Counted from the stretch's first letter, positions 9,709-26,091 are shown. The stretch: 32,000 nucleotides of DNA from Sphaerochaeta halotolerans (GCF_003429665.1 NZ_QUWK01000002.1:168990-200989); one strand, 5' to 3'. Translations and numbers: made by a program. Notes: generated from the sequence alone by a model not told the origin.

Positions 9709-9727
9709 GTAGCAAGAGGGATTAAAA

Positions 9728-10515: not shown

Positions 10516-13500
10516 AATCACTTCAACAAGGAAAGGACATGAAATACGGCGACCTTATACAATTTGACCCAATAGAAACAGTTGTTCAATTGAGAGATGC
10601 TGATAAAAAGAACGCAGCAAAAACCTTGGTAGAAACGTATGTGATCTCAGATGAGATGGCCGAGAAACTGACTGAGATTGTCATCAAACAGCTGCAATTC
10701 GATACACCTGTTGATAACAAGGGGTTATTGGTAGTAGGTAACTATGGTACTGGTAAATCGCATTTAATGTCTGTGATCTCCAGTATTGCTGCTGATGCAT
10801 CACTCCTTGAAAGCTTGAGAAATGATGTTGTAAAAGAATCAGCTAAACAGATTGCTGGCAAGTTCAAGGTCTTGCGTACGGAAATCGGGGCTACAACCAT
10901 GTCACTCAGAGATATTATTGTAGCTGAATTGGAGGACTATCTTGAAAGGATAGATGTTGATTATTCGTTCCCCGCTGCAGATACAATCACAAATCATAAA
11001 CGGGCTTTTGAAGATCTGATGGAAGTATTCGCTGAAGTCTATCCTGACCAGGGACTCCTTCTTGTTGTAGATGAGCTCTTAGATTTCTTGAGAACCCGAA
11101 AAGACCATGATCTTGTTCTTGATCTGAATTTCCTACGGGAGATTGGTGAGGTTTGCAAAGATCTCAGATTCCGCTTTGTTGCCGGAGTCCAGGAAGCAAT
11201 ATTTGAAAGCCATCGTTTTGCCTTTGTTGCTGAGAGTATCCGCCGAGTACAGCAGCGATTCGATCAAATACTAATTGCCAGAAAAGATATCAAGTTCGTT
11301 GTAGCACAGCGACTTCTGAAGAAAACAGCAGCGCAGACTTCAAACATACGTGAACATCTCACCCCCTTTGCAAAATACTATAATGGATTGAATGAACGGA
11401 TGGATGAATTCGTGAATCTTTTCCCGGTCCATCCTGATTACATAGACACATTTGAAAGAATCACGGTAGTAGAAAAGCGAGAGATCCTTAAGACTTTGTC
11501 CAACAGCATGAAAGAGCTCCTGCTCACAGATGTTCCCAAGGATAAACCGGGGCTCATTGCTTTTGACAGCTATTGGAAAACCCTCATTCAGAATGCTGCG
11601 AATAGAGCGATCCCTGATATAAGGGAAGTTATGGACTGTAGCAATGTCCTGGAATCACGCATAGAAAATGCAATCACTCGAAAGCAATATAAACCTATGG
11701 CTATCAGATTAATCAATGCCTTATCTGTACACAGACTTACTACCGGTGATATCCATGCCCCGATGGGAGCAAGTGCAAGGGAATTACGTGACAGGCTCTG
11801 TCTCTTTGATCCAATGATCGAAGAATTGGGAAGTGATGAGCCAGAGAAAGATCTTGAAACACAGGTGGAGGTTGTCCTAAAAGAAATTCTTAAAACAGTC
11901 AGTGGGCAATTCATTTCTTTCAATTCCGACAACCGCCAGTACTACCTCGATCTGAAAAAGACGGAAGATTATGATGCAATCATCGAAAAGCGGGCAGAAA
12001 GCATGGGCGATTCCCAACTTGATCGTTTTTACTACGAAGCATTAAAGCAAGTTATGGAGTGTCAGGATGGCACCTATGTCTCCGGCTATAGAATCTGGCA
12101 GCATGAACTAGTCTGGCAAAGTCGAAAAGCTGCAAGAACCGGGTACCTCTTTTTTGGCGCTCCCAATGAGAGATCTACTGCTACTCCCACTCGTGATTTC
12201 TATATCTACTTTCTCCAGCCTTTTGATCCCCCACGCTTCCAGGATATGAAAAAAAGCGATGAGGTTTTCTTCAGACTTAAGCCAATTAAAGATCAAAGTG
12301 AAGAGTTCAATGTGAACCTTAAAAATTATGCTGCTGCTTTGGATCTTACAACTACCTCTTCCGGCCATGCGAAAGCAACGTATCAGGACAAGGCTAATGG
12401 TCATCTAAGAAAATTAGTCCAATGGCTCCAAAAGCATATGTCGGATGCTTTCACTGTCACTTATCAAGGACGAACAAAACCTATCCTGGAATGGGTAAAA
12501 GGGAAACCTATTCGTGACCTCTCAGGGATATCTCCGCAGGAGACCATCAACTTTAGGGACCATGTCAATACTATTGCAGGTTTGTGTCTGGAGCCACATT
12601 TTGAGAATCTTGCACCTGGGTATCCTGCTTTCTCAATTCTCATCACCGGCAGCAACAGGGCACAAGCAGCAAAGGATGCTCTCAGAGCAATTGCAGGACA
12701 GAACAGTACCAAACAGGCCAGTGCAGTATTAGATGCATTAGGATTACTTGATGGAGATAAGCTCGATCCTTACCATTCACCCTTCACAAAACACATCCTT
12801 GATATTGTAAAATCAAAAGGACATGGGCAAGTAATCAACAGGACAGAAATCTTCACTGATGACCACGGAGTGGAATTCATGTCTCCCTCTGCCTTCCGTC
12901 TTGAACCAGATTGGGTGGTAGTAATTATAGCAGCTCTTGTCTATTCAGGTGATCTCGTATTAGCAATCCCAGGTAAGAAGTTCGATGCGACAGCTGTCCA
13001 ACAGCTCGCTTCAGTTCAGATCGATGAACTTGTAAACTTCAAACACCTGGAACAGCCAAAGGAATGGAATCTTCCCGCATTGAAAGCATTGTTTGAACTA
13101 CTGGACCTTACTCCAGGTATGGCCCAATTGATAACCCAAGGAGACAGTGAACCAATTCAGGAAATGCAGAAGAAAGTGAGCAAACTGGTAGATCGAATTG
13201 TGTTAGCTCAGAAATCCTGCAGAGAAGGTATTGCTTTCTGGGATACCAATCTCCTCCAAGAAATGAACTATATGAACTTGCTAGCAGATCTCGATGCATC
13301 AAAGGATTTCGTCGAATCACTTCAGGTCTATTCATCACCTGGAAAACTCAAAAACTTCCGCTATAGTGTTGATGAGGTAAAGAGCTATAAGAAATCAATT
13401 GTCATGATTGAGGATATAGAGATTCTTAAAGAATTTGCTGTCTCCCAGAGCACCATCATATCTTGGCTTTCAACTGCTGAAGGGACACTGCCAAAAGAAC

Positions 13501-14279
13501 ATGTTTGGGTTGATCGGTTACATACTGCCAAGCAGGATATTATTGATCTGTTGCAGAAAACAACTCCACAGGATATCAAGAAGCAAGCTCAAACTATCGG
13601 TTTAGCCTTGAATGATCTAAAAAAAGAGTTCATTAAAACGTATTCTGATTTACACACACGCTTCCGGCTTGGAGTGAATGAATACAATCGAAAAGCAAAG
13701 CTGATGACTGATCAAAGACTGCAGACTCTCCAGAAACTTGCAGGTATCGATCTTATGCCGATCCAACAGCTCAAAGATTTCCAGAGCAGGTTGGCTGAAC
13801 TGAAAAGCTGTTCCAATCTGACAGAACAAGAGTTGGAATCATCACCTGTGTGCCGTCATTGTGGTTACCGCCCAATTAACGAGACGGGATCAGCTGCTAG
13901 CAAACACATGATTGATACTCTTGATGATGAACTTGACTCACTCGTTAAGGGCTGGACTAAAACCCTTATAGGGAATCTGGAAGATCCTATTACTCAATCA
14001 AACCTGAATCTCTTAAAGCTTGAGGAAAGAAAAAGCATCGAGGAGTTCATCAACTCTGGAGAACTACCGACACCGGTTGATTCAGATTTCGTTCATTCTT
14101 TAAAGGAAGTATTGTCTGGTCTTATCAAGGTTGCTGTAAAATCCCAGGATCTGCAGAAAGCCCTTCAACTGGACCAAGGCCCAACTACTCCAATTGAGAT
14201 GAAGAAGAGGTTTGAAGAGTATATAGATAAGCTTACCCAGGGTAAAGATCAGGCCAAAGTCCGCATAGTAGTAGAATAA
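10512..14279 (+). CDS. brxC: BREX ATPase BrxC/PglY (large P-loop protein, DUF6079-like)
   Basis: 1255-aa ORF with Walker [10 protein letters not shown] and Walker [12 protein letters not shown]. Size and position between brxF and pglXI fit BrxC/PglY. An alternative start at 10539 ([18 protein letters not shown]) follows AAGGAAAGG. Confidence 0.85.
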
Positions 14280-14297
14280 ATCACAAAGGATATATAC

Positions 14298-17114
14298 ATG
14301 AGCAAACAGGGAAACCTTTTTAACTCACAGATAGTCCCGGGCAAACCGGGAAGTGGCAATCTTTTCGATGAAGAGTTTGTAATAGATAAAGGACCAGTAG
14401 TGTGTTTAGGGCTTGAATTCGATAATGATGAAGCAAGACGAACATATTTCACTGAAGAGTTAAGAAAAAAACTTAATGACCCAGAATTCAGAAACATAGA
14501 AGGCTTCCCCATAGGAGAAGACGAAGATATCCTCAAGCTAAGTGACCCACCTTACTACACAGCCTGTCCCAATCCATGGATACCTGACTTCATAGAGCAG
14601 TGGGAGAAAGAAAAACCAGAGAAGCCAGATGATTTTCATTACCATCGAGAACCCTTTGCTGCAGATGTGAGCGAAGGGAAAAATGATCCGATCTATAATG
14701 CTCACTCCTATCATACAAAGGTTCCACATAAGGCTGTTATGCGATATATCCTTCATTACACTGATCCTGGTGATATTGTATTTGATGGATTTGCAGGGAC
14801 TGGTATGACAGGAGTCGCTGCTCAGATGTGTGGCGATAGAGAAGCCATACTATCATTAGGGTATCAAGTAAAAAACGATGGGACCATTCTTCAGGAGGAA
14901 GAGGATGAGAACGGTAAGAAAACCTGGAAGCCTTTCTCAAAGCTGGGTGCTCGAAAAGCAGTTCTCAATGACCTTTCTCCTGCTGCAACCTTTATTGCGT
15001 ATAACTATAACACCCCAGTTGATGTAAAGGAATTCGAACGAGAAGCGAAACGAATCCTTGCTGAAGTCGAGGAAGAATGCGGCTGGATGTACGAGACCTC
15101 ACATACTGATGGCCGAAAAGGCAGAATCAACTATACGGTGTGGTCTGATGTCTTCACCTGCCCTGAATGTGCCGGTGAAGTTGTATTCTGGGAAGCTGCT
15201 GTAGACAAACAAGCTGGAAAAGTACAGGACGAATTCCCGTGCCCACATTGCAAAGCTGAACTGACAAAAAGAAAAATGGACCGTGCCTGGACAACAAAAT
15301 ATGATTCAGCTCTAAATGAATCTGTAAGACAAGCAAAGCAGGTTCCTGTACTGATCAATTATACTGTAGACGGTACAAAGAGGAGGTTTGAAAAAACTCC
15401 AGATGAGCATGATTTAAAGCTTATTAATACGATTGAAAACAGTGAGATTCCGTATTGGTTTCCAACCAACATCATTATTGATGGCAAAGAAATTGGCCGT
15501 TTAAAATCTCTAGAGATAAAAAATATCCATCAAATACTACCCAAAAGGAGTAATTGGATTCTTAGTTCTTTTCAAGATAAATGTAGCAGTAATTCAAAAT
15601 TATTTATTATAGCCACTTCCGCACTTCATAATTTGAGCTGGATGTATCGCTGGCGAGCAAATGGTAAAGGTGGAACTACCTCTGGCACTTATTATATATG
15701 CGCAACACCTCAAGAAAACAGTCCGTTTAATCAGCTTAGAGCTAAACTTGACGATATGCTTAAAGCTATTAACTATCGGATCAACACAGTTTCTACTCAA
15801 GATTCTAGCAATCTAAGAATGCTAGATGAATCAATCGACTACCTTTTTTTTGATCCCCCATTTGGGGCAAATTTGATGTACTCTGAATTAAGTTACATTT
15901 GGGAATCATGGTTGAAGGTTTCTACAAATAACAAGTCGGAAGCTATTGAAAATCCTGTTCAAGGTAAAGGACCAGATGAATATCGGCAATTGATGACAGC
16001 TTGTTTCAAAGAAGCTTATAGAGTGCTAAAGCCAGGTCGCTGGATGACTGTTGAATTTTCAAACACGAAAGCATCTGTATGGAATAGCATTCAAGCTGCC
16101 ATAAATGAAGCTGGATTTATCATTGCAAATGTATCAGCTTTGGACAAGAAGCAAGGCAGTTTCAAGGCAGTTACAACTCCAACCGCAGTAAAACAAGACC
16201 TGGTAATCTCAGCATACAAACCGAATGGAGGCTTTGAAGAGCGCTTTCTGAAAGAAGCTCGGACAGAAGAAGGTGTATGGGATTTCATTCATACGCATCT
16301 CCAGTATTTACCGGTCACCAAACTTCAGGGAACAGACCTTATAGTCATACCGGAAAGAGATCCAAGAATCCTGTATGATCAGGTAATTACTTATTATGTG
16401 AGAAAAGGGTATGGTGTTCCCATTGATAGTCAGGAATTCCAAGTCGGCTTATCTCAGAGGTTCTCTGAACGTGATGGTATGTATTTCTTGCCTGAACAGG
16501 TTGCTGAGTATGATCAGAAGAAATTGCGCCTTGGAAACAAGACAGTATTACAATCACTCTTTATTTCCGATGAAGCTTCTGCTATTGAGTGGCTAAGAAG
16601 TTTGCTAAGGGAAAAACCTCAAAGTTATCAAGATATAAATCCACAGTTTATGAAAGAAATTAGTGGCTGGAGTAAAAATGAAACTGGACTAGAATTGTCT
16701 ATACTTTTAGAACAGAACTTCCTTGTATATGATGGAGCTGGTTCTGTTCCTGAGCAGATTCATAGTTATTTATCCACTAACTGGAAAGATTTAAGAAATC
16801 TCTCAAAGCAAGATCCAACCTTAATTGCTAAAGCAAAAGGACGTTGGTATGTACCTGATCCAAGCAAAGCTGGAGATTTAGAAAAATTACGAGAAAGAGC
16901 CTTACTCAAGGAATTTGAACAGTACAAACAATATAATAAGAAACTAAAAGTGTTCAGACTTGAGGCTGTTAGAACTGGCTTTAAGAGAGCGTGGCAAGAA
17001 AGAGATTATCAAACTATCGTTTCTATAGCTGAAAAAATCCCTTCTAGTGTTCTAGAAGAAGATCCAAAGTTGCTGATGTGGTATGATCAAGCAATGACAA
17101 GATTGGGAGATTAA
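14298..17114 (+). CDS. pglX: BREX type 3 DNA methyltransferase PglXI (N6/N4 methylase family)
   Basis: 938-aa ORF with SAM-binding motif I VFDGFAGTGMTG. A CxxC...CxxC zinc ribbon is present (CPECAGEV...CPHCKAEL). The catalytic motif IV FFDPPFG has its D at 15852-15854. An N-terminal SDPPYYTACPNPW box is also present. Confidence 0.85.
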   Translation: MSKQGNLFNSQIVPGKPGSGNLFDEEFVIDKGPVVCLGLEFDNDEARRTYFTEELRKKLNDPEFRNIEGFPIGEDEDILKLSDPPYYTACPNPWIPDFIEQWEKEKPEKPDDFHYHREPFAADVSEGKNDPIYNAHSYHTKVPHKAVMRYILHYTDPGDIVFDGFAGTGMTGVAAQMCGDREAILSLGYQVKNDGTILQEEEDENGKKTWKPFSKLGARKAVLNDLSPAATFIAYNYNTPVDVKEFEREAKRILAEVEEECGWMYETSHTDGRKGRINYTVWSDVFTCPECAGEVVFWEAAVDKQAGKVQDEFPCPHCKAELTKRKMDRAWTTKYDSALNESVRQAKQVPVLINYTVDGTKRRFEKTPDEHDLKLINTIENSEIPYWFPTNIIIDGKEIGRLKSLEIKNIHQILPKRSNWILSSFQDKCSSNSKLFIIATSALHNLSWMYRWRANGKGGTTSGTYYICATPQENSPFNQLRAKLDDMLKAINYRINTVSTQDSSNLRMLDESIDYLFFDPPFGANLMYSELSYIWESWLKVSTNNKSEAIENPVQGKGPDEYRQLMTACFKEAYRVLKPGRWMTVEFSNTKASVWNSIQAAINEAGFIIANVSALDKKQGSFKAVTTPTAVKQDLVISAYKPNGGFEERFLKEARTEEGVWDFIHTHLQYLPVTKLQGTDLIVIPERDPRILYDQVITYYVRKGYGVPIDSQEFQVGLSQRFSERDGMYFLPEQVAEYDQKKLRLGNKTVLQSLFISDEASAIEWLRSLLREKPQSYQDINPQFMKEISGWSKNETGLELSILLEQNFLVYDGAGSVPEQIHSYLSTNWKDLRNLSKQDPTLIAKAKGRWYVPDPSKAGDLEKLRERALLKEFEQYKQYNKKLKVFRLEAVRTGFKRAWQERDYQTIVSIAEKIPSSVLEEDPKLLMWYDQAMTRLGD

Positions 17115-17120
17115 AACCTT

Positions 17121-17966
17121 ATGGTAATTACATTTTTAAAAAAGATAGCTTGGTACTACCCAAAATCTGTCTTTGCAGCATTGGGGTTATTTTGGTTAGT
17201 CATCGAACCAATTATTGGACTGACCGGTAATACTATAAATCTATCATATTGGCAATTATTTGGTTTGTCTGCGTCTATTGGAGTTATTTGGTTCATACTC
17301 GACGGAATATGGTTTTCTGGCTACCTAAAAAATAGAATAGAGATAACAAGTAACGGATTCGACACCAAAATAATAATTAAGTTTAGCGATCTATTTAATG
17401 AAGAAGGCTGGAAAGCAATACCAGTAAATGATTTTTTTGATTCAATTGTTGATGACAGACATATTTCGTCGAAAAGCCTCCATGGAATTCTCATTAAGAG
17501 ATACTGGGGAGGAAATACTAATGACTGGGATCAACAAGTCGAAGAACAGTTAAGTGATCTCACAGTTACCGATGAAACAAGACCCAAGGGAAAGACAAAA
17601 CGATATAAGATTGGTACGGCAGCAGTTTTAAGAAAAGATGGTGATAGGTTTATTTGTGTAGCATCCACGCATACCAATATCTCGAATTTAGAAACCAAAG
17701 CTAACACTGTTGATCTACACCATGCGATTTGTGGAGTCCTTGAGACATCCCGATCATGTTGTAGCAATGAAACATTATCAATTCCCTTATTTGGGTCAGG
17801 TCTTTCACGGATTGGGCTAAAGAATAATATTTTGGTTGATCACATTTTAACTGCTATTTTTGAAGAATCAAAAAAGAGCAAAGTTACCGACGTAATTCAA
17901 ATTATTTTACCTAAAAACAAAAGAGATGATATCAACCTTTTATCAATAAAAAGAGACTGGAGTTAA
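17121..17966 (+). CDS. thsA: Two-TM protein with a C-terminal Macro-like domain (candidate type II Thoeris ThsA effector)
   Basis: 281-aa ORF with two N-terminal hydrophobic helices (SVFAALGLFWLVIEPIIGL and WQLFGLSASIGVIWFILDGIWF). A soluble domain follows, with Macro-like landmarks WKAIPVNDFFDS and LSIPLFGSGLSRIG. It starts 6 nt after the pglXI stop. The domain call is by eye only. Confidence 0.55.
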   Translation: MVITFLKKIAWYYPKSVFAALGLFWLVIEPIIGLTGNTINLSYWQLFGLSASIGVIWFILDGIWFSGYLKNRIEITSNGFDTKIIIKFSDLFNEEGWKAIPVNDFFDSIVDDRHISSKSLHGILIKRYWGGNTNDWDQQVEEQLSDLTVTDETRPKGKTKRYKIGTAAVLRKDGDRFICVASTHTNISNLETKANTVDLHHAICGVLETSRSCCSNETLSIPLFGSGLSRIGLKNNILVDHILTAIFEESKKSKVTDVIQIILPKNKRDDINLLSIKRDWS

Positions 17967-17969
17967 ATT

Positions 17970-18551
17970 ATGGCATATAGAAGCGGTACATATATTGCAT
18001 TTGATGGGCTAGGACAAGAAAATCCTACATTATCAGATTTCAAGTATTACTCTACAATTCAAGCATGGGCTAGAAACACAGAGATCGATTTTAAATATGT
18101 TGATAGTCATGCAAAAACTAGTGCAGTAAGGGATACTAGTCTGAGGACAACTCTTCAATTAAGAATTCGAGAGCGTTTATCAAACTCAAAAAATGTAGTG
18201 GTAATACTAAGCAGTGATACCAGAAAAACAGGTAGTATGCTTTCTTATGAAATTGAGCAAGCTGTAGATACATATTTTCTACCATTAATCATTGCATATG
18301 TAGATTATAGTGCAATCGCAGATCCATCTCAGCTCTCATCGTACTGGCCAAATGCACTTAGTACACGAATCTCGAAAGGAACTGCAAAGGCTATTCATAT
18401 CCCATTCCTGAAGAATGCCATCTTGGATGCAATTAGCCAATTTTCATTTAATAATCTCCCGAAAACCAGTTTGAATTATTATTGCCGAGATGCTCATATG
18501 CAATTTGGTTGTATATCGGTAGCATCCCCTTTCATAAACACAATGAAATAA
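17970..18551 (+). CDS. thsB: TIR-like protein, DUF1863/ThsB family (candidate Thoeris ThsB)
   Basis: 193-aa ORF. The pattern TYIAFDG...DFKYYSTIQAW..N..IDFKYVDSH...LRIRERLSNSKNVVVILSSDT....SYEIEQA matches the ThsB/Tir TIR-like domain. It includes the conserved Glu (E94, 18249-18251) in the [RS]YEI context. The gap after the preceding gene is 3 nt. Confidence 0.7.
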   Translation: MAYRSGTYIAFDGLGQENPTLSDFKYYSTIQAWARNTEIDFKYVDSHAKTSAVRDTSLRTTLQLRIRERLSNSKNVVVILSSDTRKTGSMLSYEIEQAVDTYFLPLIIAYVDYSAIADPSQLSSYWPNALSTRISKGTAKAIHIPFLKNAILDAISQFSFNNLPKTSLNYYCRDAHMQFGCISVASPFINTMK

Positions 18552-18583
18552 CCAGTTAATAATTATTGTGAAGGAGTTAAATA

Positions 18584-20362
18584 ATGACAGAACAGGAAAT
18601 AATAGAACTCCTCAACCAACACGAATGGAAAGATGTTGAATTCAAAGAAGCAAAGACAGCTGTTCCCAAGAATGCTTACGAAACGGTATCTGCCTTTGCA
18701 AACACAGAAGGAGGGTATCTCGTTTTTGGTGTAAAAAAGAATGGTTCTGAGTATGAGCTTGTTGGGGTAAAAGATGTTGATAAAGTTCAAAATGACTTCA
18801 TTACAACGCTAAGACAAAAGAACAAAATTAGTTGCATCATTGAAGTTACAGAGACTATAAAAACTGTGGATGGAAGAGATCTAATTGTATTCTATATCTC
18901 AGAAGTTAACCGACACAAGAAACCTGTATATTTGGATGGAAATATCAAAAGAAGTTATATTCGGAAGGGTGCATGTGATGTCAAATGTTCTGATGTAGAA
19001 TTAAAGCGACTCCTTAATGATGCCTCTACCGACCGCTATGACGGCACTACAATAGACCACTTTGACATAACCAAGTGTTTTAGCAGTAAAGATATTACAT
19101 GGTATCGACGCCAGTATGAAGGAAGGATTGGAAATCGTAGCTATGCAGAATTAGACGATGAAGAGTTTCTCTTTCAGTTCGGATTGATCAAAGAAACTCC
19201 ATCTGGGAGAAAGCCTACCATTGCTTCTATTTTGCTGTTTGGTCAGGATGGCTACCTAAGAGATGTACTTCCACGACCTGTCATAGATTGTCAGCGTTTT
19301 CTATATAACTCAACTTCAACAGATGAAGGAAGATGGCATGATAGAGTTGTCTGTGATTATAATCTCATTCAAACATGGACATCGGTATTGGAATGGTACT
19401 ATCGATTTGCAGAAATCCCTTTCACAGTAGATCCAATGACAATGCAGCGAAAAGACCAACCAGTAGATTTTATTGCATTCAGAGAATCCATCGTAAATAT
19501 TTTAATCCATCAAGACTATTCGGATCAAACTCGAAAACCTGTTATACAACACTTTACGGATCTAACTCGATTTTGGAATCCTGGGGATGCATTTGCTTCT
19601 GTCGAAGAATTGCTTGAACCGGGAGAGAAAGAAGTTAGGAACCCACTCATTGTTACAGCCTTTCGGAGAATTGGTTTTAGCGAGAATGCTGGGTGGGGAT
19701 TGCGTGATGTATGTATCTCTTGGCGAAAATTAGGTCGAATGCCTCCTGTAATTATCAATGATAAGGAAAAAAAGGCATTTGAACTTAATCTTAAGCAGGA
19801 GATACTTCTTTCCGAAGATCAAATAGCATTTCAAAAGACAATTGGTGTGCAACTTTCGCAAGATGAAGCAGAAGTATTTGCTTATGCATGTAAAAACCTT
19901 TCAATATTTTCTATACATGAGATTAAGACGGTTATTAATAAACCTGTGTCTACATGCGTTGAATTAGCGGGGCATCTGGTAGATCAACAGTTATTGGTTA
20001 GTAATTCAGATAAATCATTCAGCCTAGCTCCAAAGATGAAACAAAGGTTTCTCGCTACACTTAATTCCAAGGCCCATGACGAGGCCCATGACGAGGCCCA
20101 TGATGAGACCCATGACGAACTAAACGAAACTGAAACAATAATCCTTAAGAGTTGTATATCTGCATCCAGTTCAGAAGAGTTGTTGAAAGTTTTAGGATAT
20201 AAAAGCAGAACTGGAAATTTTAAGTCAGCCTTAGGTAATCTCCTAAGATTACACTTAATAAAAATGACAATTCCTGAAAGTCCGAGGAGTAAATCACAGA
20301 AGTATGTTCTTTCTGAGAAAGGGTTTGATTTATTAAAAAAATTGGAGAAATTCAGTGATTAG
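18584..20362 (+). CDS. AlbA_2 (Schlafen-like) + HATPase_c_4 + wHTH protein (RecG-like putative DNA-binding/ATP-binding regulator)
   Basis: 592-aa ORF. The N-terminus EWKDVEFKEAK....VSAFANTEGGYLVFGV is an AlbA_2 domain. The middle ESIVNILIHQDYS...RNPLIVTAFRRIGFSENAGWGL resembles HATPase_c_4. The C-terminal LGYKSRTGNFKSALGNLL...SKSQKYVLSEKG tail is typical of this family. GAAGGAG RBS. Confidence 0.8.
   Translation: MTEQEIIELLNQHEWKDVEFKEAKTAVPKNAYETVSAFANTEGGYLVFGVKKNGSEYELVGVKDVDKVQNDFITTLRQKNKISCIIEVTETIKTVDGRDLIVFYISEVNRHKKPVYLDGNIKRSYIRKGACDVKCSDVELKRLLNDASTDRYDGTTIDHFDITKCFSSKDITWYRRQYEGRIGNRSYAELDDEEFLFQFGLIKETPSGRKPTIASILLFGQDGYLRDVLPRPVIDCQRFLYNSTSTDEGRWHDRVVCDYNLIQTWTSVLEWYYRFAEIPFTVDPMTMQRKDQPVDFIAFRESIVNILIHQDYSDQTRKPVIQHFTDLTRFWNPGDAFASVEELLEPGEKEVRNPLIVTAFRRIGFSENAGWGLRDVCISWRKLGRMPPVIINDKEKKAFELNLKQEILLSEDQIAFQKTIGVQLSQDEAEVFAYACKNLSIFSIHEIKTVINKPVSTCVELAGHLVDQQLLVSNSDKSFSLAPKMKQRFLATLNSKAHDEAHDEAHDETHDELNETETIILKSCISASSSEELLKVLGYKSRTGNFKSALGNLLRLHLIKMTIPESPRSKSQKYVLSEKGFDLLKKLEKFSD
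20072..20119 (+). repeat. 12-bp in-frame tandem repeat x4 encoding (A/T)HDE
   Basis: GCCCATGACGAG, GCCCATGACGAG, GCCCATGATGAG, ACCCATGACGAA occur back to back. They translate to AHDEAHDEAHDETHDE inside the 592-aa ORF. Confidence 0.95.
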
Positions 20363-20478
20363 TTTAATTCAAACTATCAAGCAAAGTAAAGAATTGGATC
20401 TATACCTCACATATTTTCTCAATGGACAAGTTTGCGCCCGTCCAAATGCTTCTTTAATAATTACAAGCCGGAGGATGG

Positions 20479-23349
20479 ATGAATAATTGGAAATTTAGCA
20501 CACACTATTCATCCATATGTATGGTCTTAGATGAACAATATCTTTGGGGCCAAATAATCTGTCGCATTTGGCTACCATCACAACATGCAATTGTACGTGT
20601 ATCGGAGGCAGATCTAAAACCTCTACATTCAGAGAGAATCAGTAAAACTGAAGAGTTTAGAATCTCATATATTGCTACAGCAGCAAAAATAGCAGAACTA
20701 TTAGAGAATACCTCTGAGGATAATGACAGCACAGTTTTATTAGCTCCTATGGAATCAAATGTAATTCCTCTTCCCCATCAGCTTCATGCTTTGTCACGAG
20801 CTATTTCAGGTGATAGAGTACGGTACCTTCTTGCTGATGAAGTCGGCCTTGGTAAAACTATTGAAGCTGGACTAATTATGCAGGAGCTTAAGCTTCGTGG
20901 TTTGGTACGGCGAACACTAGTTGTTGCTCCTAAAAGCCTGGCTATGCAGTGGGTAGCAGAAATGGAAACCCACTTCAATGAGAATTTCGCATTGATAAAT
21001 CCAGGAGATCTTGATGCTCTGGAACGACTAGAATGCTCAACCTCCTATATCGACGGAGCAGAGAGCTCTTCAGATTATAACCCCTGGTTGAAATTCAATC
21101 ATGCGGTCGTAACATTGGATGCAGTCAAACCAGTGAGGCGTCGAAAAGGCTGGTCTGAAGAAAAAGTTCATCAGTACAATAAAAACAGATATGAAAGACT
21201 GCTCCAAGGCCAATGGGATCTTATTATTGTTGATGAGTCTCACCGTATTGGAGGTAGTACTGATCAGGTCTCCCGTTACAAACTTGGCCAGGGATTAGCA
21301 GAAGCAGCCACTTATCTTTTGCTCCTTTCAGCAACTCCTCATCAAGGGAAGTCGGATGCCTTCCACCGGTTAATCAGTCTGCTTGATCCAATGTCTTTTC
21401 CCGATCAAGAAAGTGTTACCCGAGAGAAAGTCTCTGAGTTCGTTATCAGAACAGAGAAGAGAAAAGCGCTGACCGCTGAAGGTGAACCTCTATTCAAACC
21501 TCGAACAACACAGACAATGGGAATCGATCTGAGTAGAAACCCCTCCCAAGTTGCTTTATATGAGGCTGTCACTGATTATGTTCGATTAGGCTATAATCGT
21601 GCAATCAAAGACAAGAAGCCTCATATAGGCTTTCTTATGGTGTTACTGCAGCGAATTGTTACCTCGAGTTCCCATGCCATCAGGACAACTCTGGAAAGAC
21701 GTTTGAATGTGCTTGAGAATCTTAAATCTTCTCTCCATATTCCTACTTCTGATGAGTTAGAGGAACTAGTAGATCTCGATGGTCAGATGCAATTGGATTT
21801 CTTAATAGAGGTAGATGAAAAGGGCAGACATAATGAGATAGAAGAAGTTTCTTTCTTGCTTGGTCTGGCAAAAAAGGCTGAGCAAACGGGACCCGATATC
21901 AAGACAGATATCCTCATGGACCAGATATTCAGACTTCAAGGAGAAGAGAATAACGATCAATTGAAAATTATCATCTTTACGGAGTTTGTTGCTACCCAAT
22001 CCATGCTGCAAACTTTTCTTGAAGAGAGGAATTTTCCGTGTTCAATCATCAATGGCTCCATGAGTATGGAGGAACGAAGAAAAGCTCAAAGAGATTTTAG
22101 AGAAAAGAATAGGATACTCATTGCCACTGATGCGGGAGGAGAAGGTCTAAACCTGCAGTTTTGCCATGTAGTTATCAATTATGACCTACCCTGGAATCCT
22201 ATGCGTATAGAACAGAGAATCGGCAGGGTAGATCGTATCGGACAGTCGAAGATCGTAAGAGCTATTAATTTCGTGTATGAAGACTCTGTGGAAAGTAGGG
22301 TTCGTGAAGTTTTAGAGAGGAAATTATCGATCATCTTTGATGAAATGGGGATCGACAAATCCAATGATATCCTTGATACATCTCTTTCTGGTGAGCTGGT
22401 AGAGAAGATGATGACTCACATCATCATGGAAGAGGCTGACCCTGAAAAAGAAATAGAGCGGACTGTGAGAACAATCCAATTTGATTTGGCACAGGAACGC
22501 AATAAATGTGCTGTGTACAAGATATCAGAAGACCCCGAACCAGCTGCTGCTGTGAAGGTCAAGAATCATCCACTTCCCTTCTGGGTGGAACGAATGGTGA
22601 TCAATTACGTAAAAATGAATGAACTGTCCGTAGAGAAAGATCTACTGGGCTGGAACTTCGTATGGCCGGATGGCGAAAAAGTATCTGGTGCAATATTTCA
22701 CTCTCCTGATTCCACCTCAGATTCATTGAGATTGTCTTTGGAAAACCCAAAGGTCCGTGGTCTTATTCTCAACCTGCCACAACTGTTCTCTGGTCAGCCA
22801 GTACCATTAGTAGCGTTAGAAGGAGTTCCAGAAACAGTTAATGGCTATTGGGGACTATTTGAGATTACACTCACCATTCACAGTAACGAAACCAATCAAA
22901 TACGACTTCCCGCAAAAAGGAAAGGGTATCAATGCGTGTTTGTCAGCAACAAGGGTAAACTATTCATACCTACTGCAAGATTCATCTGGGATCAGTTATT
23001 AACACTGGAACCTCAGATACTTCGAATGCTATCACCAGAGGAGTCTGTTCATTGCTTTGAAACCCTTTATGAAGCAGCTGCAACTGCTGGAGAGGAGCTT
23101 TTTAACCAGCTTAAGAATTCTCATGAAAAAGCAATTGAGAGAGAAAATCAGCGAGGAATGACAGCTTTTACTTTTCGGAGAAGATCGATACATAAAGTAG
23201 GTTTACCGGAAGTGAGAAATTACCGATTGCATAGACTGGAAGAAGATAAGCTTCAATGGCAGAGGGAACTAAAAAGCGCTGCCCAAGTGATCCCTGATAT
23301 TCGTCCTTTATTAATCTTTTCTATTGGGGAGGTTCCTGGAGATGAGTAG
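20479..23349 (+). CDS. brxHII: BREX type 3 helicase BrxHII (SNF2/RapA-like, COG0553-type)
   Basis: 956-aa ORF with helicase motif I LLADEVGLGKT, motif II LIIVDESHR, motif III LLLSATP, and C-terminal motifs ATDAGGEGLNLQ and QRIGRVDRIGQ. GGAGGA RBS. It sits upstream of pglZ with an 8-nt overlap. Confidence 0.85.
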   Translation: MNNWKFSTHYSSICMVLDEQYLWGQIICRIWLPSQHAIVRVSEADLKPLHSERISKTEEFRISYIATAAKIAELLENTSEDNDSTVLLAPMESNVIPLPHQLHALSRAISGDRVRYLLADEVGLGKTIEAGLIMQELKLRGLVRRTLVVAPKSLAMQWVAEMETHFNENFALINPGDLDALERLECSTSYIDGAESSSDYNPWLKFNHAVVTLDAVKPVRRRKGWSEEKVHQYNKNRYERLLQGQWDLIIVDESHRIGGSTDQVSRYKLGQGLAEAATYLLLLSATPHQGKSDAFHRLISLLDPMSFPDQESVTREKVSEFVIRTEKRKALTAEGEPLFKPRTTQTMGIDLSRNPSQVALYEAVTDYVRLGYNRAIKDKKPHIGFLMVLLQRIVTSSSHAIRTTLERRLNVLENLKSSLHIPTSDELEELVDLDGQMQLDFLIEVDEKGRHNEIEEVSFLLGLAKKAEQTGPDIKTDILMDQIFRLQGEENNDQLKIIIFTEFVATQSMLQTFLEERNFPCSIINGSMSMEERRKAQRDFREKNRILIATDAGGEGLNLQFCHVVINYDLPWNPMRIEQRIGRVDRIGQSKIVRAINFVYEDSVESRVREVLERKLSIIFDEMGIDKSNDILDTSLSGELVEKMMTHIIMEEADPEKEIERTVRTIQFDLAQERNKCAVYKISEDPEPAAAVKVKNHPLPFWVERMVINYVKMNELSVEKDLLGWNFVWPDGEKVSGAIFHSPDSTSDSLRLSLENPKVRGLILNLPQLFSGQPVPLVALEGVPETVNGYWGLFEITLTIHSNETNQIRLPAKRKGYQCVFVSNKGKLFIPTARFIWDQLLTLEPQILRMLSPEESVHCFETLYEAAATAGEELFNQLKNSHEKAIERENQRGMTAFTFRRRSIHKVGLPEVRNYRLHRLEEDKLQWQRELKSAAQVIPDIRPLLIFSIGEVPGDE

Positions 23350-25339
23350 CTGGAGAGATAATATCCTAAAGGAGTTCATTCCAAATATTTCTAAACTCAC
23401 ATTAGTAGCAGACCCAGATAGTCTACTATCAGAAGAAAAACTCTCGTCTGAGTTGCGAAAAAGAGGCTTTGATCTTATAGAATTCGATGATTCCATAGAA
23501 TTCCGCTATGCCTATGAATCTAAATATCGATCTATCTGGGATCAAGGATTACATACAGACTTGGTTGTTATCTTGAGAGTTCAGAACTCAGAGCTATCAA
23601 ATCTCCCTTATGATTTGCTTCAAGCAGGAAGAATTCTCTCTTTCAGTTTGGGAGCTATCTTCCCAAACTTCAGTTATCCAATTCTGGATTGTTTGGAACA
23701 GCATGTATTTGATGCTCTATTCAGAGCTCAAGAAGACACCTCCCCTGGGATTATGGGGGATAATGGCACTAAGGATTTCATACTGCGACATATATACAGT
23801 ATTGCTCCTGAACTGATTAATACCGAAGTAGATCTTCTCCGATCACTACTAAGATTGCATTACGGTACAATAGAAATTCCAGAACCATTAGCTGATCGAT
23901 TAGTCTCCCTCCTCCAGAATAATGTAACGTTCAAAGAATGGCCACTTGAAAGCATTGTCAAAGATTCCAAAGTTTTCTATGCCTTCATCCAGGAGCGATG
24001 GTCAATTTTCTTGGACAGCTACGATCAAGTCGAGCAGGTTATGGATTCGCCTTCCCCTTACGGGTTGCAGGTTTCAGGGCCTGCCCTTCTTCCTTTTGAA
24101 CACCAGGATATCAGAATTTATATCGACAATCTGTTCGTTGAAGGAAAGCTATCGCCTGTTGAATATTCAAAACACAGTGTTCCAGCCAATTCCTGGATGT
24201 CCTGTGGGATAAAGACCGCTTCAGGTGATACAGAAGCTATACGAATAAATCGCCTATTTTCTATCGTAACTTCAAATTTGCCGAATGCCCAATCTCGTTA
24301 CAATGAATGGCTGTCAATTGCCCTGCAATGGGGAGAACTCTCAGTATTAATTCATAACAACTCTGACGTAACGCTTCTTGAAAGATTTACATCACTGCAG
24401 ACCGAGATTAATGGTATTTTTGCTGGATGGTTAACTGAATACTATGCAAGTCTTATAAATCTACCACCATCCACCCCTGTGATGGTTCATCATATTCCTC
24501 GGTTTCTCTCAAGGCAACTAGAAAGTAGTGATACGAAGAAAATAGCCTTATTAGTAATCGATGGTATGGCGTTTGATCAATGGATAACAGTAAAACACTC
24601 ACTACAATCACAGGATCCAACACTGCTCTTCCGTGACTCGGCTGTTTTTGCTTGGATACCAACATTGACCTCTGTCTCAAGACAAGCAATCTTTGCCGGG
24701 AAACCACCCATATATTTCCCTAATTCAATATACAGTACAAACAGTGAAGAGAAATTATGGAAGCAATTCTGGCAAAGTCAGGGACTTCAGAAACAAGAGA
24801 TTGCCTATAGAAGAAGTTTGGGTGATGAAAATATTGAAGACTGCCTAGAGGCCGTCATCAACCCGTATAAAACAACTGTTGCAGGTATGGTCATAGATAC
24901 AGTTGATAAGATCATGCATGGTATGCAACTTGGGGCTCCCGGCATGCATAACCAGATTGCACAATGGTGTAAAACGGGATATTTGAAGAAAACCTTAGAC
25001 TACCTTGATGAGCTCGGCTATGAGGTATGGCTGACTTCTGATCACGGTAATATTGAAGCTGTTGGGACCGGAAGAATTGCCGAAGGCTCATTGGTAGATA
25101 GTCGAGGTGAGAGGGTCAGGATATATCCTAATGTAGAATTAAGAAACCAAATTGCAGCTTCTTCAGTAGGCACTCGACTTTGGGCCCCTATAGGCTTGCC
25201 AGAAGATTTCTTTCCATTACTTGCAGATAATAACACTGCTTTCATCAAAGAAGGTGCAACTACAGTTGCCCATGGAGGGATCTCCATAGAAGAAGTCATT
25301 GTTCCACTTATTAAAATTGAAAGGATACCCCATAGATGA
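23342..25339 (+). CDS. pglZ: BREX alkaline-phosphatase-superfamily protein PglZ
   Basis: PglZ-domain landmarks: LLVIDGMAFDQW, PTLTSVSRQAIFAG, LTSDHGN. I prefer the ATG at 23342, which has GGGGAGG about 10 nt upstream and overlaps the brxHII stop. The track ORF starts in the same frame at 23324. Confidence 0.85.
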   Translation: MSSWRDNILKEFIPNISKLTLVADPDSLLSEEKLSSELRKRGFDLIEFDDSIEFRYAYESKYRSIWDQGLHTDLVVILRVQNSELSNLPYDLLQAGRILSFSLGAIFPNFSYPILDCLEQHVFDALFRAQEDTSPGIMGDNGTKDFILRHIYSIAPELINTEVDLLRSLLRLHYGTIEIPEPLADRLVSLLQNNVTFKEWPLESIVKDSKVFYAFIQERWSIFLDSYDQVEQVMDSPSPYGLQVSGPALLPFEHQDIRIYIDNLFVEGKLSPVEYSKHSVPANSWMSCGIKTASGDTEAIRINRLFSIVTSNLPNAQSRYNEWLSIALQWGELSVLIHNNSDVTLLERFTSLQTEINGIFAGWLTEYYASLINLPPSTPVMVHHIPRFLSRQLESSDTKKIALLVIDGMAFDQWITVKHSLQSQDPTLLFRDSAVFAWIPTLTSVSRQAIFAGKPPIYFPNSIYSTNSEEKLWKQFWQSQGLQKQEIAYRRSLGDENIEDCLEAVINPYKTTVAGMVIDTVDKIMHGMQLGAPGMHNQIAQWCKTGYLKKTLDYLDELGYEVWLTSDHGNIEAVGTGRIAEGSLVDSRGERVRIYPNVELRNQIAASSVGTRLWAPIGLPEDFFPLLADNNTAFIKEGATTVAHGGISIEEVIVPLIKIERIPHR

Positions 25340-26091
25340 ACAACAGGTATAACAAATTAGGTATTAAACAAACCATCCAGAAACACTGGATGGACTACAC
25401 ACTAAATATGCTGCTTGCAGGCTTGTCAGAAAAGGAGATTCGTTCAGAACTGGATACCTATCTATCAACCCAGAAACAAAGCGGTGGCATCGGAGAACGT
25501 GGTCAAAAAACCTATGGGATGGCAATCAGTATTCTATCATCCTGGATCTCTCCAGAGAAAGAATTGATTCCTTTCCGGGATAAAGCATTGAACTTGGCAA
25601 AAGTTATTCCTGATAGTGAATGGCTCCCTCTTCATTGGGCTGTGATTTCAGCTTCTTATCCTTTCTGGTTCAATACTGCAAAACAGACTGGTAGACTTTT
25701 TAATCTTCAGGAGAAAATAACCAAAGCTCAGGTTTTCAATAGATTAAAAGAATGTTATGGAGACAGGGAAACCGTTTCAAGAAATGCTCGTTATACTGTA
25801 CGATCTTTTGTTGCTTGGGGAATTTTACAAGACACTGAAACCAAGGGAGTCTATACCAAAGCAAACCCCTTCATGATCGATAATCCTCAACAAGCGATAC
25901 TGCTATTTGAAGCATACTTGCATACCCTTCCGGAAGCAAAAGCTGAATTAGGTTCGATCATCCATAACCCCGGATTCTTTCCCTTCCAAATGCAAAGCAT
26001 GACAGGTGAGTACATTGCACAGAACAGTGATTTTTTGGAGGTTTCGAGATACAGCCTAGATAACGAGATTCTCAAGTTGAAGAACAATTAA
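25336..26091 (+). CDS. brxA: Probable BrxA (DUF1819-like) terminal gene of type 3 BREX
   Basis: 251-aa ORF with a 4-nt overlap with pglZ. It is helical, with a BrxA-like N-terminal pattern (LLAGLSEKEIRSEL..YL). The call rests mainly on its position as the last gene in the canonical type 3 order. Confidence 0.55.
   Translation: MNNRYNKLGIKQTIQKHWMDYTLNMLLAGLSEKEIRSELDTYLSTQKQSGGIGERGQKTYGMAISILSSWISPEKELIPFRDKALNLAKVIPDSEWLPLHWAVISASYPFWFNTAKQTGRLFNLQEKITKAQVFNRLKECYGDRETVSRNARYTVRSFVAWGILQDTETKGVYTKANPFMIDNPQQAILLFEAYLHTLPEAKAELGSIIHNPGFFPFQMQSMTGEYIAQNSDFLEVSRYSLDNEILKLKNN

What the first reader, a model, noticed from the sequence alone, without database searches (positions are those of the whole stretch)
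17115..20478. Three-gene cassette splits the canonical pglXI-brxHII junction with operon-tight spacing
The type 3 BREX order is brxF, brxC, pglXI, brxHII, pglZ, brxA. Here 3.3 kb carrying three same-strand genes is inserted exactly between pglXI and brxHII.

The spacing is very tight:
- 6 nt from the pglXI stop to gene 1
- 3 nt from gene 1 to gene 2
- 32 nt from gene 2 to gene 3
- 116 nt from gene 3 to brxHII

I see no terminator hairpin in any of these gaps. The cassette therefore probably rides on the BREX transcript.

Hand GC counts on single 60-nt lines give 33-35% in the cassette (21/60 at 17281-17340 and 20/60 at 18061-18120). Core BREX genes give about 50% (30/60 at 12601-12660 and 30/60 at 21001-21060). 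This points to a separately acquired module.

It suggests a composite immune operon, with BREX plus a TIR-signalling abortive-infection layer plus a Schlafen-like protein, whose components may be co-regulated or functionally coupled.
Basis: partly seen in the sequence, partly recalled or inferred. Interest (0 to 1): 0.8.

Follow-up and report, generated by a model that had tools for sequence, protein, structure and literature searches.

The report
Thoeris and Schlafen genes inside BREX
A phage-defence operon (type 3 BREX) in a spirochaete carries two extra, independent defence modules in a slot that usually holds such add-ons, and the Thoeris module belongs to a lineage mostly found in that same slot in other microbes.

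Summary
The coordinates, spacings and gene identities are correct. The window (Sphaerochaeta halotolerans) reads brxF-brxC-pglXI-thsA-thsB-slfn-brxHII-pglZ-brxA on one strand, with no terminator-like site in the insert.

It is not one three-gene cassette.
- Among close relatives the slot has four states: empty; thsAB only; Ppl + Schlafen; thsAB + Schlafen (this window).
- The Schlafen-GHKL-wHTH gene is 91% identical in a sister locus, like the BREX core. It is a published, widespread BREX accessory.
- thsAB is a complete type II Thoeris pair. Sister loci keep a thsB 3' relic, so thsAB was ancestral there and Ppl displaced it.

The pglXI-brxHII junction is not normally closed: 32 of 43 scorable type 3 BREX loci carry 0.5-4.5 kb of same-strand defence genes there.

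The GC dip is about 6 points, not 15. thsAB is GC-poorer than BREX in all 16 loci checked, so the dip does not show recent acquisition.

The less expected result is that 14 of 20 informative ThsA relatives at 50% identity or more sit in type 3 BREX, including an archaeon, against 0 of 30 below 50%.

Embedded defences in BREX are already described, so this is a new member of a known kind.

The parts
9728..9907 (+). 59-aa HTH_17 / mad1-like small DNA-binding protein upstream of brxF; candidate operon regulator (peripheral part)
   Evidence: PADLOC mad1, E = 1.6e-13. DNA is 84-86% identical in relatives L082-L085, where an HTH_17 gene is called in L082, L084 and L085.
10039..17114 (+). Type 3 BREX 5' block: brxF (10039-10515), brxC (10512-14279), pglXI (14298-17114)
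   Evidence: PADLOC BrxF 6e-54, BrxC E=0, PglXI E=0. Pfam DUF6079 and N6_N4_Mtase. PglXI is 100% identical to a Sphaerochaeta halotolerans protein.
17121..17966 (+). thsA: type II Thoeris effector, two N-terminal TM helices (about aa 16-36 and 45-66) plus a Macro domain (aa 71-277)
   Evidence: Pfam ThsA_Macro 3.7e-39 and PADLOC ThsA 2e-52. PDB matches 8V6Q, 8V6S, 9UUZ and 8R66. Hydropathy analysis.
17970..18551 (+). thsB: TIR-domain sensor and signal synthase, full length, with the C-terminal tail typical of ThsBs that pair with TM-Macro ThsA
   Evidence: Pfam ThsB_TIR 7.6e-15 and PADLOC ThsB 4.5e-65. PDB matches 3HYN, 8V6T and 9UV0. It aligns end to end with seven other ThsBs of this lineage, with E94 invariant.
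17111..18508 (+). The only segment without DNA homology in the closest BREX relatives: the variable module (thsA plus most of thsB)
   Evidence: blastn against L081-L084 ends at 17109-17110 and resumes at 18501-18509. GC is 0.351.
18509..18583 (+). thsB 3' end plus the slfn leader; conserved in sister loci, where it survives as an untranslated thsB relic
   Evidence: Alignment A5. L081/L082 encode the relic 'CISGASPFANTRK*' and L083/L084 encode 'SILSPFTNLRK*' at the homologous position. This matches the family C-terminus F-x-N-T-x-K*.
18584..20362 (+). pSlfn: Schlafen/AlbA_2 RNase-like domain, GHKL-type HATPase_c_4 and C-terminal wHTH; a recurrent BREX accessory
   Evidence: Pfam SLFN_AlbA_2 4e-17, HATPase_c_4 2e-9, Fic-like_C 2e-7. 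Intact E14-x4-E19-x-K21 motif (motif defined in 10.1101/2025.07.24.666596). 91% identical to the L081/L082 copy. The same architecture is present in 14 brxC-pglXI slots and 4-5 pglXI-brxHII slots.
20363..20478 (+). 116-nt slfn-brxHII spacer with the brxHII RBS (GGAGGA); conserved with relatives, with no significant structure or terminator
   Evidence: Alignment A6, 85% mean column identity. Fold z = -0.04. No Rfam match.
20479..26091 (+). Type 3 BREX 3' block: brxHII (20479-23349), pglZ (23324-25339), brxA (25336-26091)
   Evidence: PADLOC BrxHI|BrxHII model E=0, PglZ 8.5e-295, BrxA 8e-86. Pfam SNF2-rel_dom/Helicase_C and PglZ.

Best explanation
The 3.3-kb stretch is two independent accessory defence modules, not one cassette. 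Both sit in a variable slot of a type 3 BREX operon, between the methyltransferase gene pglXI and the helicase gene brxHII.

Module 1 is a complete type II Thoeris pair. By inference from the characterised family, the TIR protein ThsB senses infection and makes an ADP-ribose-derived signal of the His-ADPR type. The Macro domain of ThsA binds that signal. ThsA then oligomerises and its two transmembrane helices damage the membrane, giving abortive infection.

Module 2 is a prokaryotic Schlafen protein with an intact RNase motif fused to a GHKL ATPase-like domain and a winged helix. It is a known, widespread BREX companion, inferred to be a tRNA-cleaving backup effector or a regulator.

Both modules are probably transcribed with the BREX genes. 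They would act as second-line, cell-sacrificing layers behind the methylation-based first line.

In evolutionary terms the slot turns over by recombination between BREX-3 loci. In this clade thsAB was the earlier occupant. It was replaced by the Ppl defence gene in sister lineages, the Schlafen gene is absent in another relative, and the slot is empty in a fourth. The Thoeris lineage involved is largely confined to this slot of type 3 BREX operons in bacteria and at least one archaeon.
For: Shown:
- Gene identities and complete domain sets.
- Full-length ThsA (281 aa, family 279-283) and ThsB.
- Intact Schlafen Ex4ExK motif.
- Four slot states among relatives whose BREX core is 88-94% identical.
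- Homology breakpoints at 17110 and 18509.
- A thsB 3' relic in L081-L084.
- The sister-locus occupant is Ppl, E = 4.8e-153.
- The slot is occupied in 32 of 43 loci, almost always by same-strand genes matching IetAS, AriA, HEC-01, Ppl, AbiL, NsnB, Old, PIN and Schlafen models.
- ThsA relatives at 50% identity or more are embedded in BREX-3 in 14 of 20 informative loci, against 0 of 30 below 50%. Methanosarcina sp. WWM596 adds one more.
- BREX-resident ThsAs form one NJ clade.
- ThsA and BREX divergence are incongruent. L086 vs L097 gives ThsA 86%, PglXI 57%, BrxHII 68%. L100 vs L097 gives ThsA 48%, BrxHII 73%.
- No terminator-like site or structured spacer in the insert.

From the literature:
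- Type II Thoeris mechanism (10.1101/2024.01.03.573942; PMC11204291).
- Schlafen-HisKinase-wHTH closely linked to BREX cores in at least 1017 taxa (PMC12839542).
- Embedded genes share the host system's orientation in 96.7% of cases (10.1101/2024.01.29.577857).
- BxaP, an abortive-infection gene, lies at this same junction (PMC10799925).
Against: - No expression or phenotype data exist for this locus. Co-transcription is inferred only from spacing and the absence of terminator-like sites. Internal promoters cannot be excluded: weak promoter-like matches occur at 18535-18585 and 20460-20487, although the scan as a whole is at chance level (43 found, 43.3 expected).
- Only 3 of 6 published His-ADPR contact residues are conserved (D90, S182, R230 kept; N133->H121, Q135->I123, Y277->P264). 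The signal may differ.
- The HisKinase-HTH Schlafen class has not itself been shown to defend.
- Trees are neighbour-joining without support values.
- The ThsA locus sample is biased towards relatives of the query, and many contigs are short.
- The relic match is short: 10 of 13 residues, convincing mainly through its position and its DNA-level alignment.
Confidence: 0.75

Rival explanations
1. A single, recently acquired three-gene cassette (ThsA-ThsB-Schlafen) was inserted into an otherwise closed pglXI-brxHII junction, and its three products work together as one TIR-signalling plus Schlafen abortive-infection unit.
For: The three genes are contiguous, on the same strand and tightly spaced. 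All three are GC-poorer than the BREX core. thsB and slfn share a near-identical RBS and start context.
Against: - L147 has thsAB directly followed by brxHII, with no Schlafen gene.
- L081-L084 have the Schlafen gene without thsAB.
- L086, L089, L090, L099 and L148 place the Schlafen gene in the other slot (brxC-pglXI) while thsAB stays after pglXI.
- The window-specific DNA covers only thsA and most of thsB.
- The junction is occupied in most BREX-3 loci.
- The GC dip is a constant property of thsAB in 16 of 16 loci.
Confidence: 0.05
2. Guard model. This Thoeris lineage is functionally wired to BREX as PrrC is to the EcoprrI restriction system. ThsB is held inactive by, or monitors, a BREX component such as PglXI or the SNF2 helicase. 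It fires when a phage anti-BREX factor disables that component.
For: - The lineage shows strong fidelity to BREX-3: 14 of 20 against 0 of 30, a single clade, and presence in an archaeon.
- The position is constant, downstream of pglXI and usually 10-39 nt upstream of brxHII.
- The nested exceptions L092/L095 again sit 11 nt upstream of a DrmD-like SNF2 helicase.
- PARIS-like AriA/AriB modules, which sense anti-restriction proteins, occupy the same slot.
- The concept is discussed for embedded systems in 10.1101/2024.01.29.577857.
Against: - There is no direct evidence of interaction.
- Fidelity can arise simply because the module spreads by homologous recombination between BREX-3 loci.
- L087 has thsAB but no brxHII.
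- In this window the Schlafen gene separates thsB from brxHII.
- Standalone relatives at 52-56% identity exist on a mobile element and beside AbiEi, so the proteins can evidently persist without BREX.
Confidence: 0.15
3. Regulator model for gene 3. The AlbA_2-GHKL-wHTH protein is mainly a DNA-binding transcriptional regulator or sensor of the BREX operon, analogous to BrxR in type 1 loci, and not a nuclease effector.
For: It has a C-terminal winged helix (Fic-like_C). It recurs inside BREX-3 operons in either slot. It has its own conserved 75-nt leader. COG2865-type proteins have long been annotated as predicted regulators (my own background knowledge, not a tool result).
Against: The Ex4ExK catalytic motif is intact. 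PMC12839542 classes it as a backup RNase effector. It is absent from many BREX-3 loci, including close relatives L085 and L147, so it cannot be an essential regulator.
Confidence: 0.2

Closest known systems
BxaP in type 3 BREX (Duan et al. 2024, PMC10799925)
   Same: It is a non-core gene inserted exactly between PglXI and BrxHII of type 3 BREX. It confers phage immunity on its own, probably by abortive infection.
   Different: BxaP is a single rare gene (21 of 7308 BREX-bearing MAGs) unrelated to TIR, Macro or Schlafen proteins. Here the slot holds a two-gene signalling system plus a Schlafen gene.
Embedded defence systems in BREX, DISARM, type I R-M and Hma (Payne et al. 2024 preprint, 10.1101/2024.01.29.577857), including BrxU in pEFER BREX and PrrC in EcoprrI
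   Same: Defence genes are nested between the core genes of a larger system. They share its orientation in 96.7% of cases, and the authors propose co-regulation and backup or guard roles. HEC-01, AriA, Ppl and IetAS models match occupants of the same slot here.
   Different: Thoeris is not mentioned in that paper's main text. The lineage-level fidelity of a type II Thoeris clade to one slot of type 3 BREX, reminiscent of PrrC's exclusivity, is not described there.
Type II Thoeris (B. amyloliquefaciens Y2, E. coli CFT073; 10.1101/2024.01.03.573942, PMC11204291)
   Same: ThsA has two TM helices and a Macro domain. The adjacent ThsB has a TIR domain with a C-terminal tail. Sequence matches the solved structures 8R66, 8V6Q and 8V6T.
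   Different: Identity to characterised members is low (phmmer bit scores 54-75). Three of six His-ADPR contact residues differ. The genes sit inside a BREX operon and do not form a stand-alone two-gene locus.
Schlafen-minimal histidine kinase-wHTH 'backup effectors' of BREX (PMC12839542); pSlfn HisKinase-HTH class (10.1101/2025.07.24.666596)
   Same: The domain architecture and catalytic motif are identical. The protein is closely linked to BREX core genes.
   Different: Nothing substantive; gene 3 is a member of this described class. In most sampled BREX-3 loci it lies between brxC and pglXI, whereas here it lies between thsB and brxHII.

Membership tests
Type 3 BREX | [quoted passage not shown] | tested here: met
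   All six have top PADLOC hits at E <= 6e-54 with near full-length coverage, all on the + strand.
Type II Thoeris | ThsA effector with N-terminal transmembrane helices and a C-terminal Macro domain | tested here: met
   Hydrophobic 19-mers at aa 16-36 and 45-66. ThsA_Macro 3.7e-39. PDB 8V6Q and 8R66 align over aa 62-277.
Type II Thoeris | Adjacent ThsB with a TIR domain and a conserved active-site glutamate | tested here: met
   ThsB_TIR 7.6e-15 and PADLOC ThsB 4.5e-65. thsB starts 3 nt after thsA. E94 aligns with the Glu of the 'HEI' motif of 8V6T and is invariant in 8 ThsBs. That this Glu is the catalytic one is inferred, not verified by residue number.
Type II Thoeris | Macro pocket residues that bind His-ADPR (D100, N133, Q135, S194, R240, Y277 in ThsA of B. 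amyloliquefaciens) | tested here: inconclusive
   Mapped through the 8R66 alignment, with the numbering offset checked on three residues. D90, S182 and R230 are kept; H121, I123 and P264 differ. R230 corresponds to the residue that contacts the histidine carboxylate.
Type II Thoeris | Infection-triggered signal production and abortive infection | not testable with these tools
   Requires phage challenge and LC-MS.
Prokaryotic Schlafen (pSlfn), HisKinase-HTH class | Schlafen/AlbA_2 domain with the Ex4(E/D)xK motif, a GHKL/HATPase_c_4 domain and a C-terminal (w)HTH | tested here: met
   Pfam SLFN_AlbA_2, HATPase_c_4 and Fic-like_C. E14-WKDV-E19-F-K21 (motif).
Prokaryotic Schlafen (pSlfn), HisKinase-HTH class | Phage-activated tRNase activity | not testable with these tools
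   This was shown only for other pSlfn architectures in 10.1101/2025.07.24.666596.
Embedded defence system (sensu Payne et al.) | Nested between core genes of a larger defence system, in the same orientation | tested here: met
   The genes lie between pglXI and brxHII on the + strand. The same arrangement is seen in 14 further BREX-3 loci and in L148.
   thsAB occurs without slfn (L147). slfn occurs without thsAB (L081-L084). slfn lies in the other slot in L086, L089, L090, L099 and L148. No convincing flanking repeats surround thsAB.

The most novel reading that the evidence does not exclude
A distinct lineage of type II Thoeris has become a dedicated partner of type 3 BREX and of related SNF2-helicase systems. 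Its TIR sensor would be held in check by, or would monitor, a BREX component. It would fire when phage anti-BREX factors disable the first line, making it a PrrC-like guard built on TIR signalling and conserved from bacteria to methanogenic archaea.
Probability: 0.15. Interest if true: 0.75.

Novelty: new member of a known kind. Interest (0 to 1): 0.42.

Why it matters
Embedding of defence genes inside BREX, the Schlafen-BREX link and even an abortive-infection gene at this exact junction are all published. The locus is therefore an instance of a known design rather than a new one.

Three things go beyond the papers I could read:
1. A concrete map of the pglXI-brxHII slot as the usual place for add-on modules in type 3 BREX. 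The brxC-pglXI slot is a second such place.
2. A natural swap series (empty, thsAB, thsAB + Schlafen, Ppl + Schlafen) on near-identical backbones, with a relic that gives the direction of one replacement.
3. A type II Thoeris lineage found mostly inside BREX-3, including in an archaeon.

The third point gives a clean test system. It can show whether embedded abortive-infection modules are merely co-regulated passengers or are wired to the host system, and it supplies natural constructs for synergy experiments.

Tried and rejected
- **E. coli genomes:** a megablast of the 9-kb region against all complete E. coli genomes found no match. The organism was identified instead through the PglXI protein.
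- **Promoter scan:** 43 sites found against 43.3 expected. It is uninformative and was not used as evidence for or against internal promoters.
- **RNA elements:** Rfam at E <= 0.1 over 9000-26500 found nothing. Folding of the three junction spacers and the post-brxA region gave z-scores between -0.21 and +0.96, so there is no structured element or intrinsic terminator.
- **Mobility signatures around thsAB:** repeat searches over 16900-18700 found only short 12-22-nt imperfect matches of the kind expected by chance. No att-like or integron-like signature was seen, so turnover by homologous recombination in the flanking BREX genes is preferred.
- **Plasmids and phages:** tblastn of ThsA found nothing above 29% identity, so no vector for the module was identified.
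- **GC as a marker of recent horizontal acquisition:** rejected after finding the same dip in all 16 loci.
- **thsB as a chimera with backbone sequence:** I first read the 75 nt upstream of slfn as backbone supplying a foreign C-terminus to ThsB. This was rejected after alignment A8 showed that the C-terminus is native to the ThsB family, which reversed the inferred direction of the event.
- **Simple vertical co-inheritance of thsAB with BREX-3:** rejected because of incongruent pairwise identities and interleaving in the BrxHII tree.


Full report
**What is in the window.** The window comes from Sphaerochaeta halotolerans: its PglXI is 100% identical to a protein from that species. ORF coordinates and gaps match the finding exactly.

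| Gene | Coordinates | Gap to previous gene |
|---|---|---|
| brxF | 10039-10515 | - |
| brxC | 10512-14279 | overlaps brxF |
| pglXI | 14298-17114 | 18 nt |
| gene 1 (thsA) | 17121-17966 | 6 nt |
| gene 2 (thsB) | 17970-18551 | 3 nt |
| gene 3 (slfn) | 18584-20362 | 32 nt |
| brxHII | 20479-23349 | 116 nt |
| pglZ | 23324-25339 | overlaps brxHII |
| brxA | 25336-26091 | overlaps pglZ |

Profile searches confirm all six type 3 BREX genes. They identify gene 1 as ThsA (Macro domain), gene 2 as ThsB (TIR-like) and gene 3 as SLFN_AlbA_2 + HATPase_c_4 + a Fic-like C-terminal winged helix.

**Composition.** Only 6% of 60-nt lines in the BREX core reach 30/60. Whole-gene GC is 0.348 (thsA), 0.359 (thsB), 0.377 (slfn), 0.413 (BREX core) and 0.482 (host flanks). 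The whole BREX island is GC-poor relative to the genome, and the insert is about 6 points lower again. The thsAB-specific segment (0.351) lies below every 1.4-kb core window (0.378-0.443). The break is real but much smaller than claimed.

It is also not informative about recent acquisition. In all 16 loci that carry related thsAB genes, thsAB is GC-poorer than its flanking core genes, by 8 points on average, on backbones from about 37% to 61% GC.

**Transcription signals.** No terminator-like site lies on the + strand between 17000 and 20500. The junction spacers fold no better than shuffled sequence, and Rfam finds nothing. Promoter-like matches occur at chance frequency and prove nothing either way. 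Co-transcription with BREX is therefore plausible but untested.

**Is pglXI-brxHII normally a closed junction? No.** I fetched 80 type 3 BREX loci from species-representative genomes using a PglXI alignment and mapped the window's proteins onto them.
- Of 43 loci where the junction can be scored, 10 have gaps of 66 nt or less, one has 285 nt, and 32 have 0.5-4.5 kb.
- The brxC-pglXI junction is likewise occupied in 31 of 57 loci.
- The gap ORFs are almost all on the BREX strand.
- In the pglXI-brxHII slot they match models for IetA/IetS, PARIS AriA, HEC-01, Ppl, AbiL, Menshen NsnB, Old, PIN and Schlafen/HATPase_c_4 proteins.
- In the brxC-pglXI slot the commonest occupant, in 14 loci, has exactly the architecture of gene 3.
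- ThsA and ThsB occur in none of the 80 loci.

**The three genes are not one unit.** The nearest BREX relatives (BrxC 92-94%, BrxHII 91-94% amino-acid identity) show four states of the slot.

| Locus | Order across the slot |
|---|---|
| L085 | pglXI, then brxHII 7 nt later (empty) |
| L081-L084 | pglXI - 920-aa protein - Schlafen - brxHII |
| L147 | pglXI - thsA - thsB - brxHII (no Schlafen gene) |
| Window | pglXI - thsA - thsB - Schlafen - brxHII |

- The 920-aa protein in L081-L084 is a full-length match to the Ppl defence protein (E = 4.8e-153).
- L147 is 87.5% identical at the DNA level to window 16461-18551.
- DNA homology between the window and L081/L082 stops at 17110 and resumes at 18509. 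Only thsA and most of thsB are window-specific.
- The Schlafen gene (91% identical), its 75-nt leader and the 116-nt spacer before brxHII are shared backbone.

**Direction of the event.** The window's ThsB aligns to its very last residue with ThsBs from loci that have no Schlafen gene downstream, sharing a C-terminal F-x-N-T-x-K*. The homologous, untranslated stretch in L081/L082 still reads CISGASPFANTRK*, and in L083/L084 it reads SILSPFTNLRK*. These are relics of a thsB 3' end. In the common ancestor of these loci thsAB was therefore already present upstream of the Schlafen gene, and Ppl later displaced it in the sister lineages. This is the opposite of a recent thsAB insertion.

**Module 1: a type II Thoeris pair.**
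- ThsA has two N-terminal hydrophobic helices (about aa 16-36 and 45-66) and a Macro domain that matches the solved ThsA Macro structures 8V6Q, 8V6S, 9UUZ and 8R66.
- ThsB matches 8V6T, 9UV0 and 3HYN and keeps an invariant glutamate, E94.
- In the characterised systems the TIR protein makes His-ADPR on infection. The Macro domain binds it, and the TM-Macro effector oligomerises and is thought to damage the membrane (10.1101/2024.01.03.573942, PMC11204291, 10.64898/2025.12.03.692087).
- Mapping the six published ligand contacts through the 8R66 alignment gives D90, S182 and R230 conserved. R230 is the counterpart of the residue that touches the histidine carboxylate. H121, I123 and P264 differ.
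- The mechanism is therefore inferred by homology, and the exact signal is uncertain.

**Module 2: a prokaryotic Schlafen.** Gene 3 has an intact E-x4-E-x-K motif (E14, E19, K21). It belongs to the common HisKinase-HTH class of prokaryotic Schlafens. PMC12839542 already reports this architecture as closely linked to BREX and BREX-related cores in at least 1017 taxa and interprets it as a backup RNase effector. That particular class has not itself been shown to defend, and a regulatory role through its winged helix remains possible.

**The less expected result.** The nearest ThsA relatives on long contigs (62-67% identity) are all inside type 3 BREX operons, downstream of pglXI. A metagenome scan with a ThsA alignment gives these counts among loci with informative flanks.

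| ThsA identity to the window | Embedded in BREX-3 |
|---|---|
| 50% or more | 14 of 20 |
| below 50% | 0 of 30 |

- An independent look-up adds the complete genome of the archaeon Methanosarcina sp. WWM596, with the order brxC-slfn-pglXI-pglXI-thsA-thsB-ATPase-DUF4276-brxHII-pglZ-brxA. Two standalone cases at 52-56% identity also turned up.
- In a neighbour-joining ThsA tree the BREX-resident proteins form one clade plus a small second pair. The three non-BREX cases in that clade are nested deep inside it. At least L092 and L095 lie 11 nt upstream of a DrmD-like SNF2 helicase in another defence operon.
- In the BrxHII tree, thsAB-bearing loci are confined to one half (10 of 22 leaves against 0 of 22) but are interleaved with loci that lack thsAB.
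- Pairwise identities are incongruent. L086 vs L097 gives ThsA 86%, PglXI 57%, BrxHII 68%. L100 vs L097 gives ThsA 48%, BrxHII 73%. The Mantel correlation is r = 0.62 for ThsA against BrxHII.
- The simplest reading is long residence of this Thoeris lineage in BREX-3, with exchange of the module between BREX-3 backbones by recombination.
- No close relative is present on sequenced plasmids or phages.

**Comparison with what is known.**
- Embedding of defence genes within BREX, DISARM, type I R-M and Hma systems is established. The embedded genes share the host system's orientation in 96.7% of cases, and co-regulation, backup and guard rationales have been proposed (10.1101/2024.01.29.577857).
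- A single abortive-infection gene, BxaP, has been reported at exactly the PglXI-BrxHII junction of type 3 BREX (PMC10799925).
- Neither those papers' main texts, nor the 2026 BREX survey (PMC12839542), nor the two Thoeris papers I searched mention Thoeris inside BREX. The only paper holding both 'Thoeris' and a type 3 BREX term is PMC10799925, where the two are unrelated. Supplementary tables were not searched.

**Verdict.** It is wrong on the unit (two independent modules), on the 'canonical' closed junction, on GC as evidence of acquisition, and on polarity (thsAB is the older occupant in this clade).

This is a new member of a known kind. The residual novelty is the BREX-3-resident type II Thoeris lineage, which could be a passenger that spreads between BREX loci (my preferred reading) or a PrrC-like guard wired to BREX (about 15%).

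Noticed in passing
window 9236-9436 and 26169-26377: Direct repeats of about 200 nt (80-89% identical, spacing about 16.93 kb) bracket the entire BREX operon, from the small HTH gene to brxA. The right copy overlaps the start of the host sensor gene at 26352. The whole BREX locus looks like an inserted block with a duplicated target.
   Followed up: partly
window 6185-6257, 6286-6415, 8147-8276, 6486-8091: A tRNA-Met gene sits where GC drops. Just downstream, 130-nt direct repeats (95% identical) bracket an AbiEii/AbiEi pair on the minus strand (PADLOC 3e-105 and 4e-63). A second defence module therefore lies next to BREX and has its own repeat boundaries.
   Followed up: partly
window 15500-15831 (PglXI residues about 401-511): This segment has no detectable DNA homology even in relatives that are about 87-91% identical on the 5' side and 78-89% on the 3' side, and it is GC-poor (0.343). 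PglXI is only 79-84% identical while the other core proteins are 88-94%. It is probably a swapped specificity (TRD-like) region of the methyltransferase.
   Followed up: partly
window 9728-9907: A 59-aa HTH_17 protein matching PADLOC 'mad1' (E = 1.6e-13) lies upstream of brxF. The DNA is 84-86% identical in L082-L085, and an HTH_17 gene is called in L082, L084 and L085. It is a candidate regulator of the operon.
   Followed up: partly
window 20074-20116, 26218-26236, 9284-9302: The Schlafen linker contains a 12-nt tandem repeat (x3) encoding AHDE-AHDE-AHDE-THDE. A 19-nt sequence 95% identical to it occurs inside the right BREX-flanking repeat, and a 79% match occurs in the left one. The reason is unknown.
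   Followed up: no
window 17959-17975 and 18573-18589: thsB and the Schlafen gene share an almost identical ribosome-binding and start context, GGAGTTAAAT(T/A)ATG(G/A)CA.
   Followed up: no
L092 3738-18078 (and L095): A thsAB pair from the BREX-resident clade sits between a C5-methylase, helicase-nuclease and Vsr block and a 1198-aa DrmD-like SNF2 helicase that starts 11 nt after thsB. A TmtA-like protein follows. The module is again embedded just upstream of an SNF2 helicase.
   Followed up: partly
L148 (Methanosarcina sp. WWM596, CP009503.1) 3290-8999: This archaeal type 3 BREX locus has two tandem 936-aa PglXI genes, followed by thsAB, an AAA_15/AAA_21 ATPase and a DUF4276 protein before brxHII.
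   Followed up: no
L147 2155-2343 versus window 20479-20712: L147 is 87.5% identical at the DNA level to the window across the pglXI 3' end and thsAB, but its BrxHII N-terminus is only 59% identical at the protein level. The locus is mosaic, with a breakpoint at the slot.
   Followed up: partly
L081/L082 (229-aa ORF) and L088 (898-aa UvrD-like) between brxHII and pglZ: Extra same-strand genes also occur between brxHII and pglZ in some relatives. This suggests a third, less used insertion point in type 3 BREX.
   Followed up: no
window 4502-5410 (minus strand): This 302-aa ORF matches only positions 218-393 of the 483-residue TrkH profile. It may be a truncated or frameshifted potassium-transporter gene near the island boundary.
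   Followed up: no
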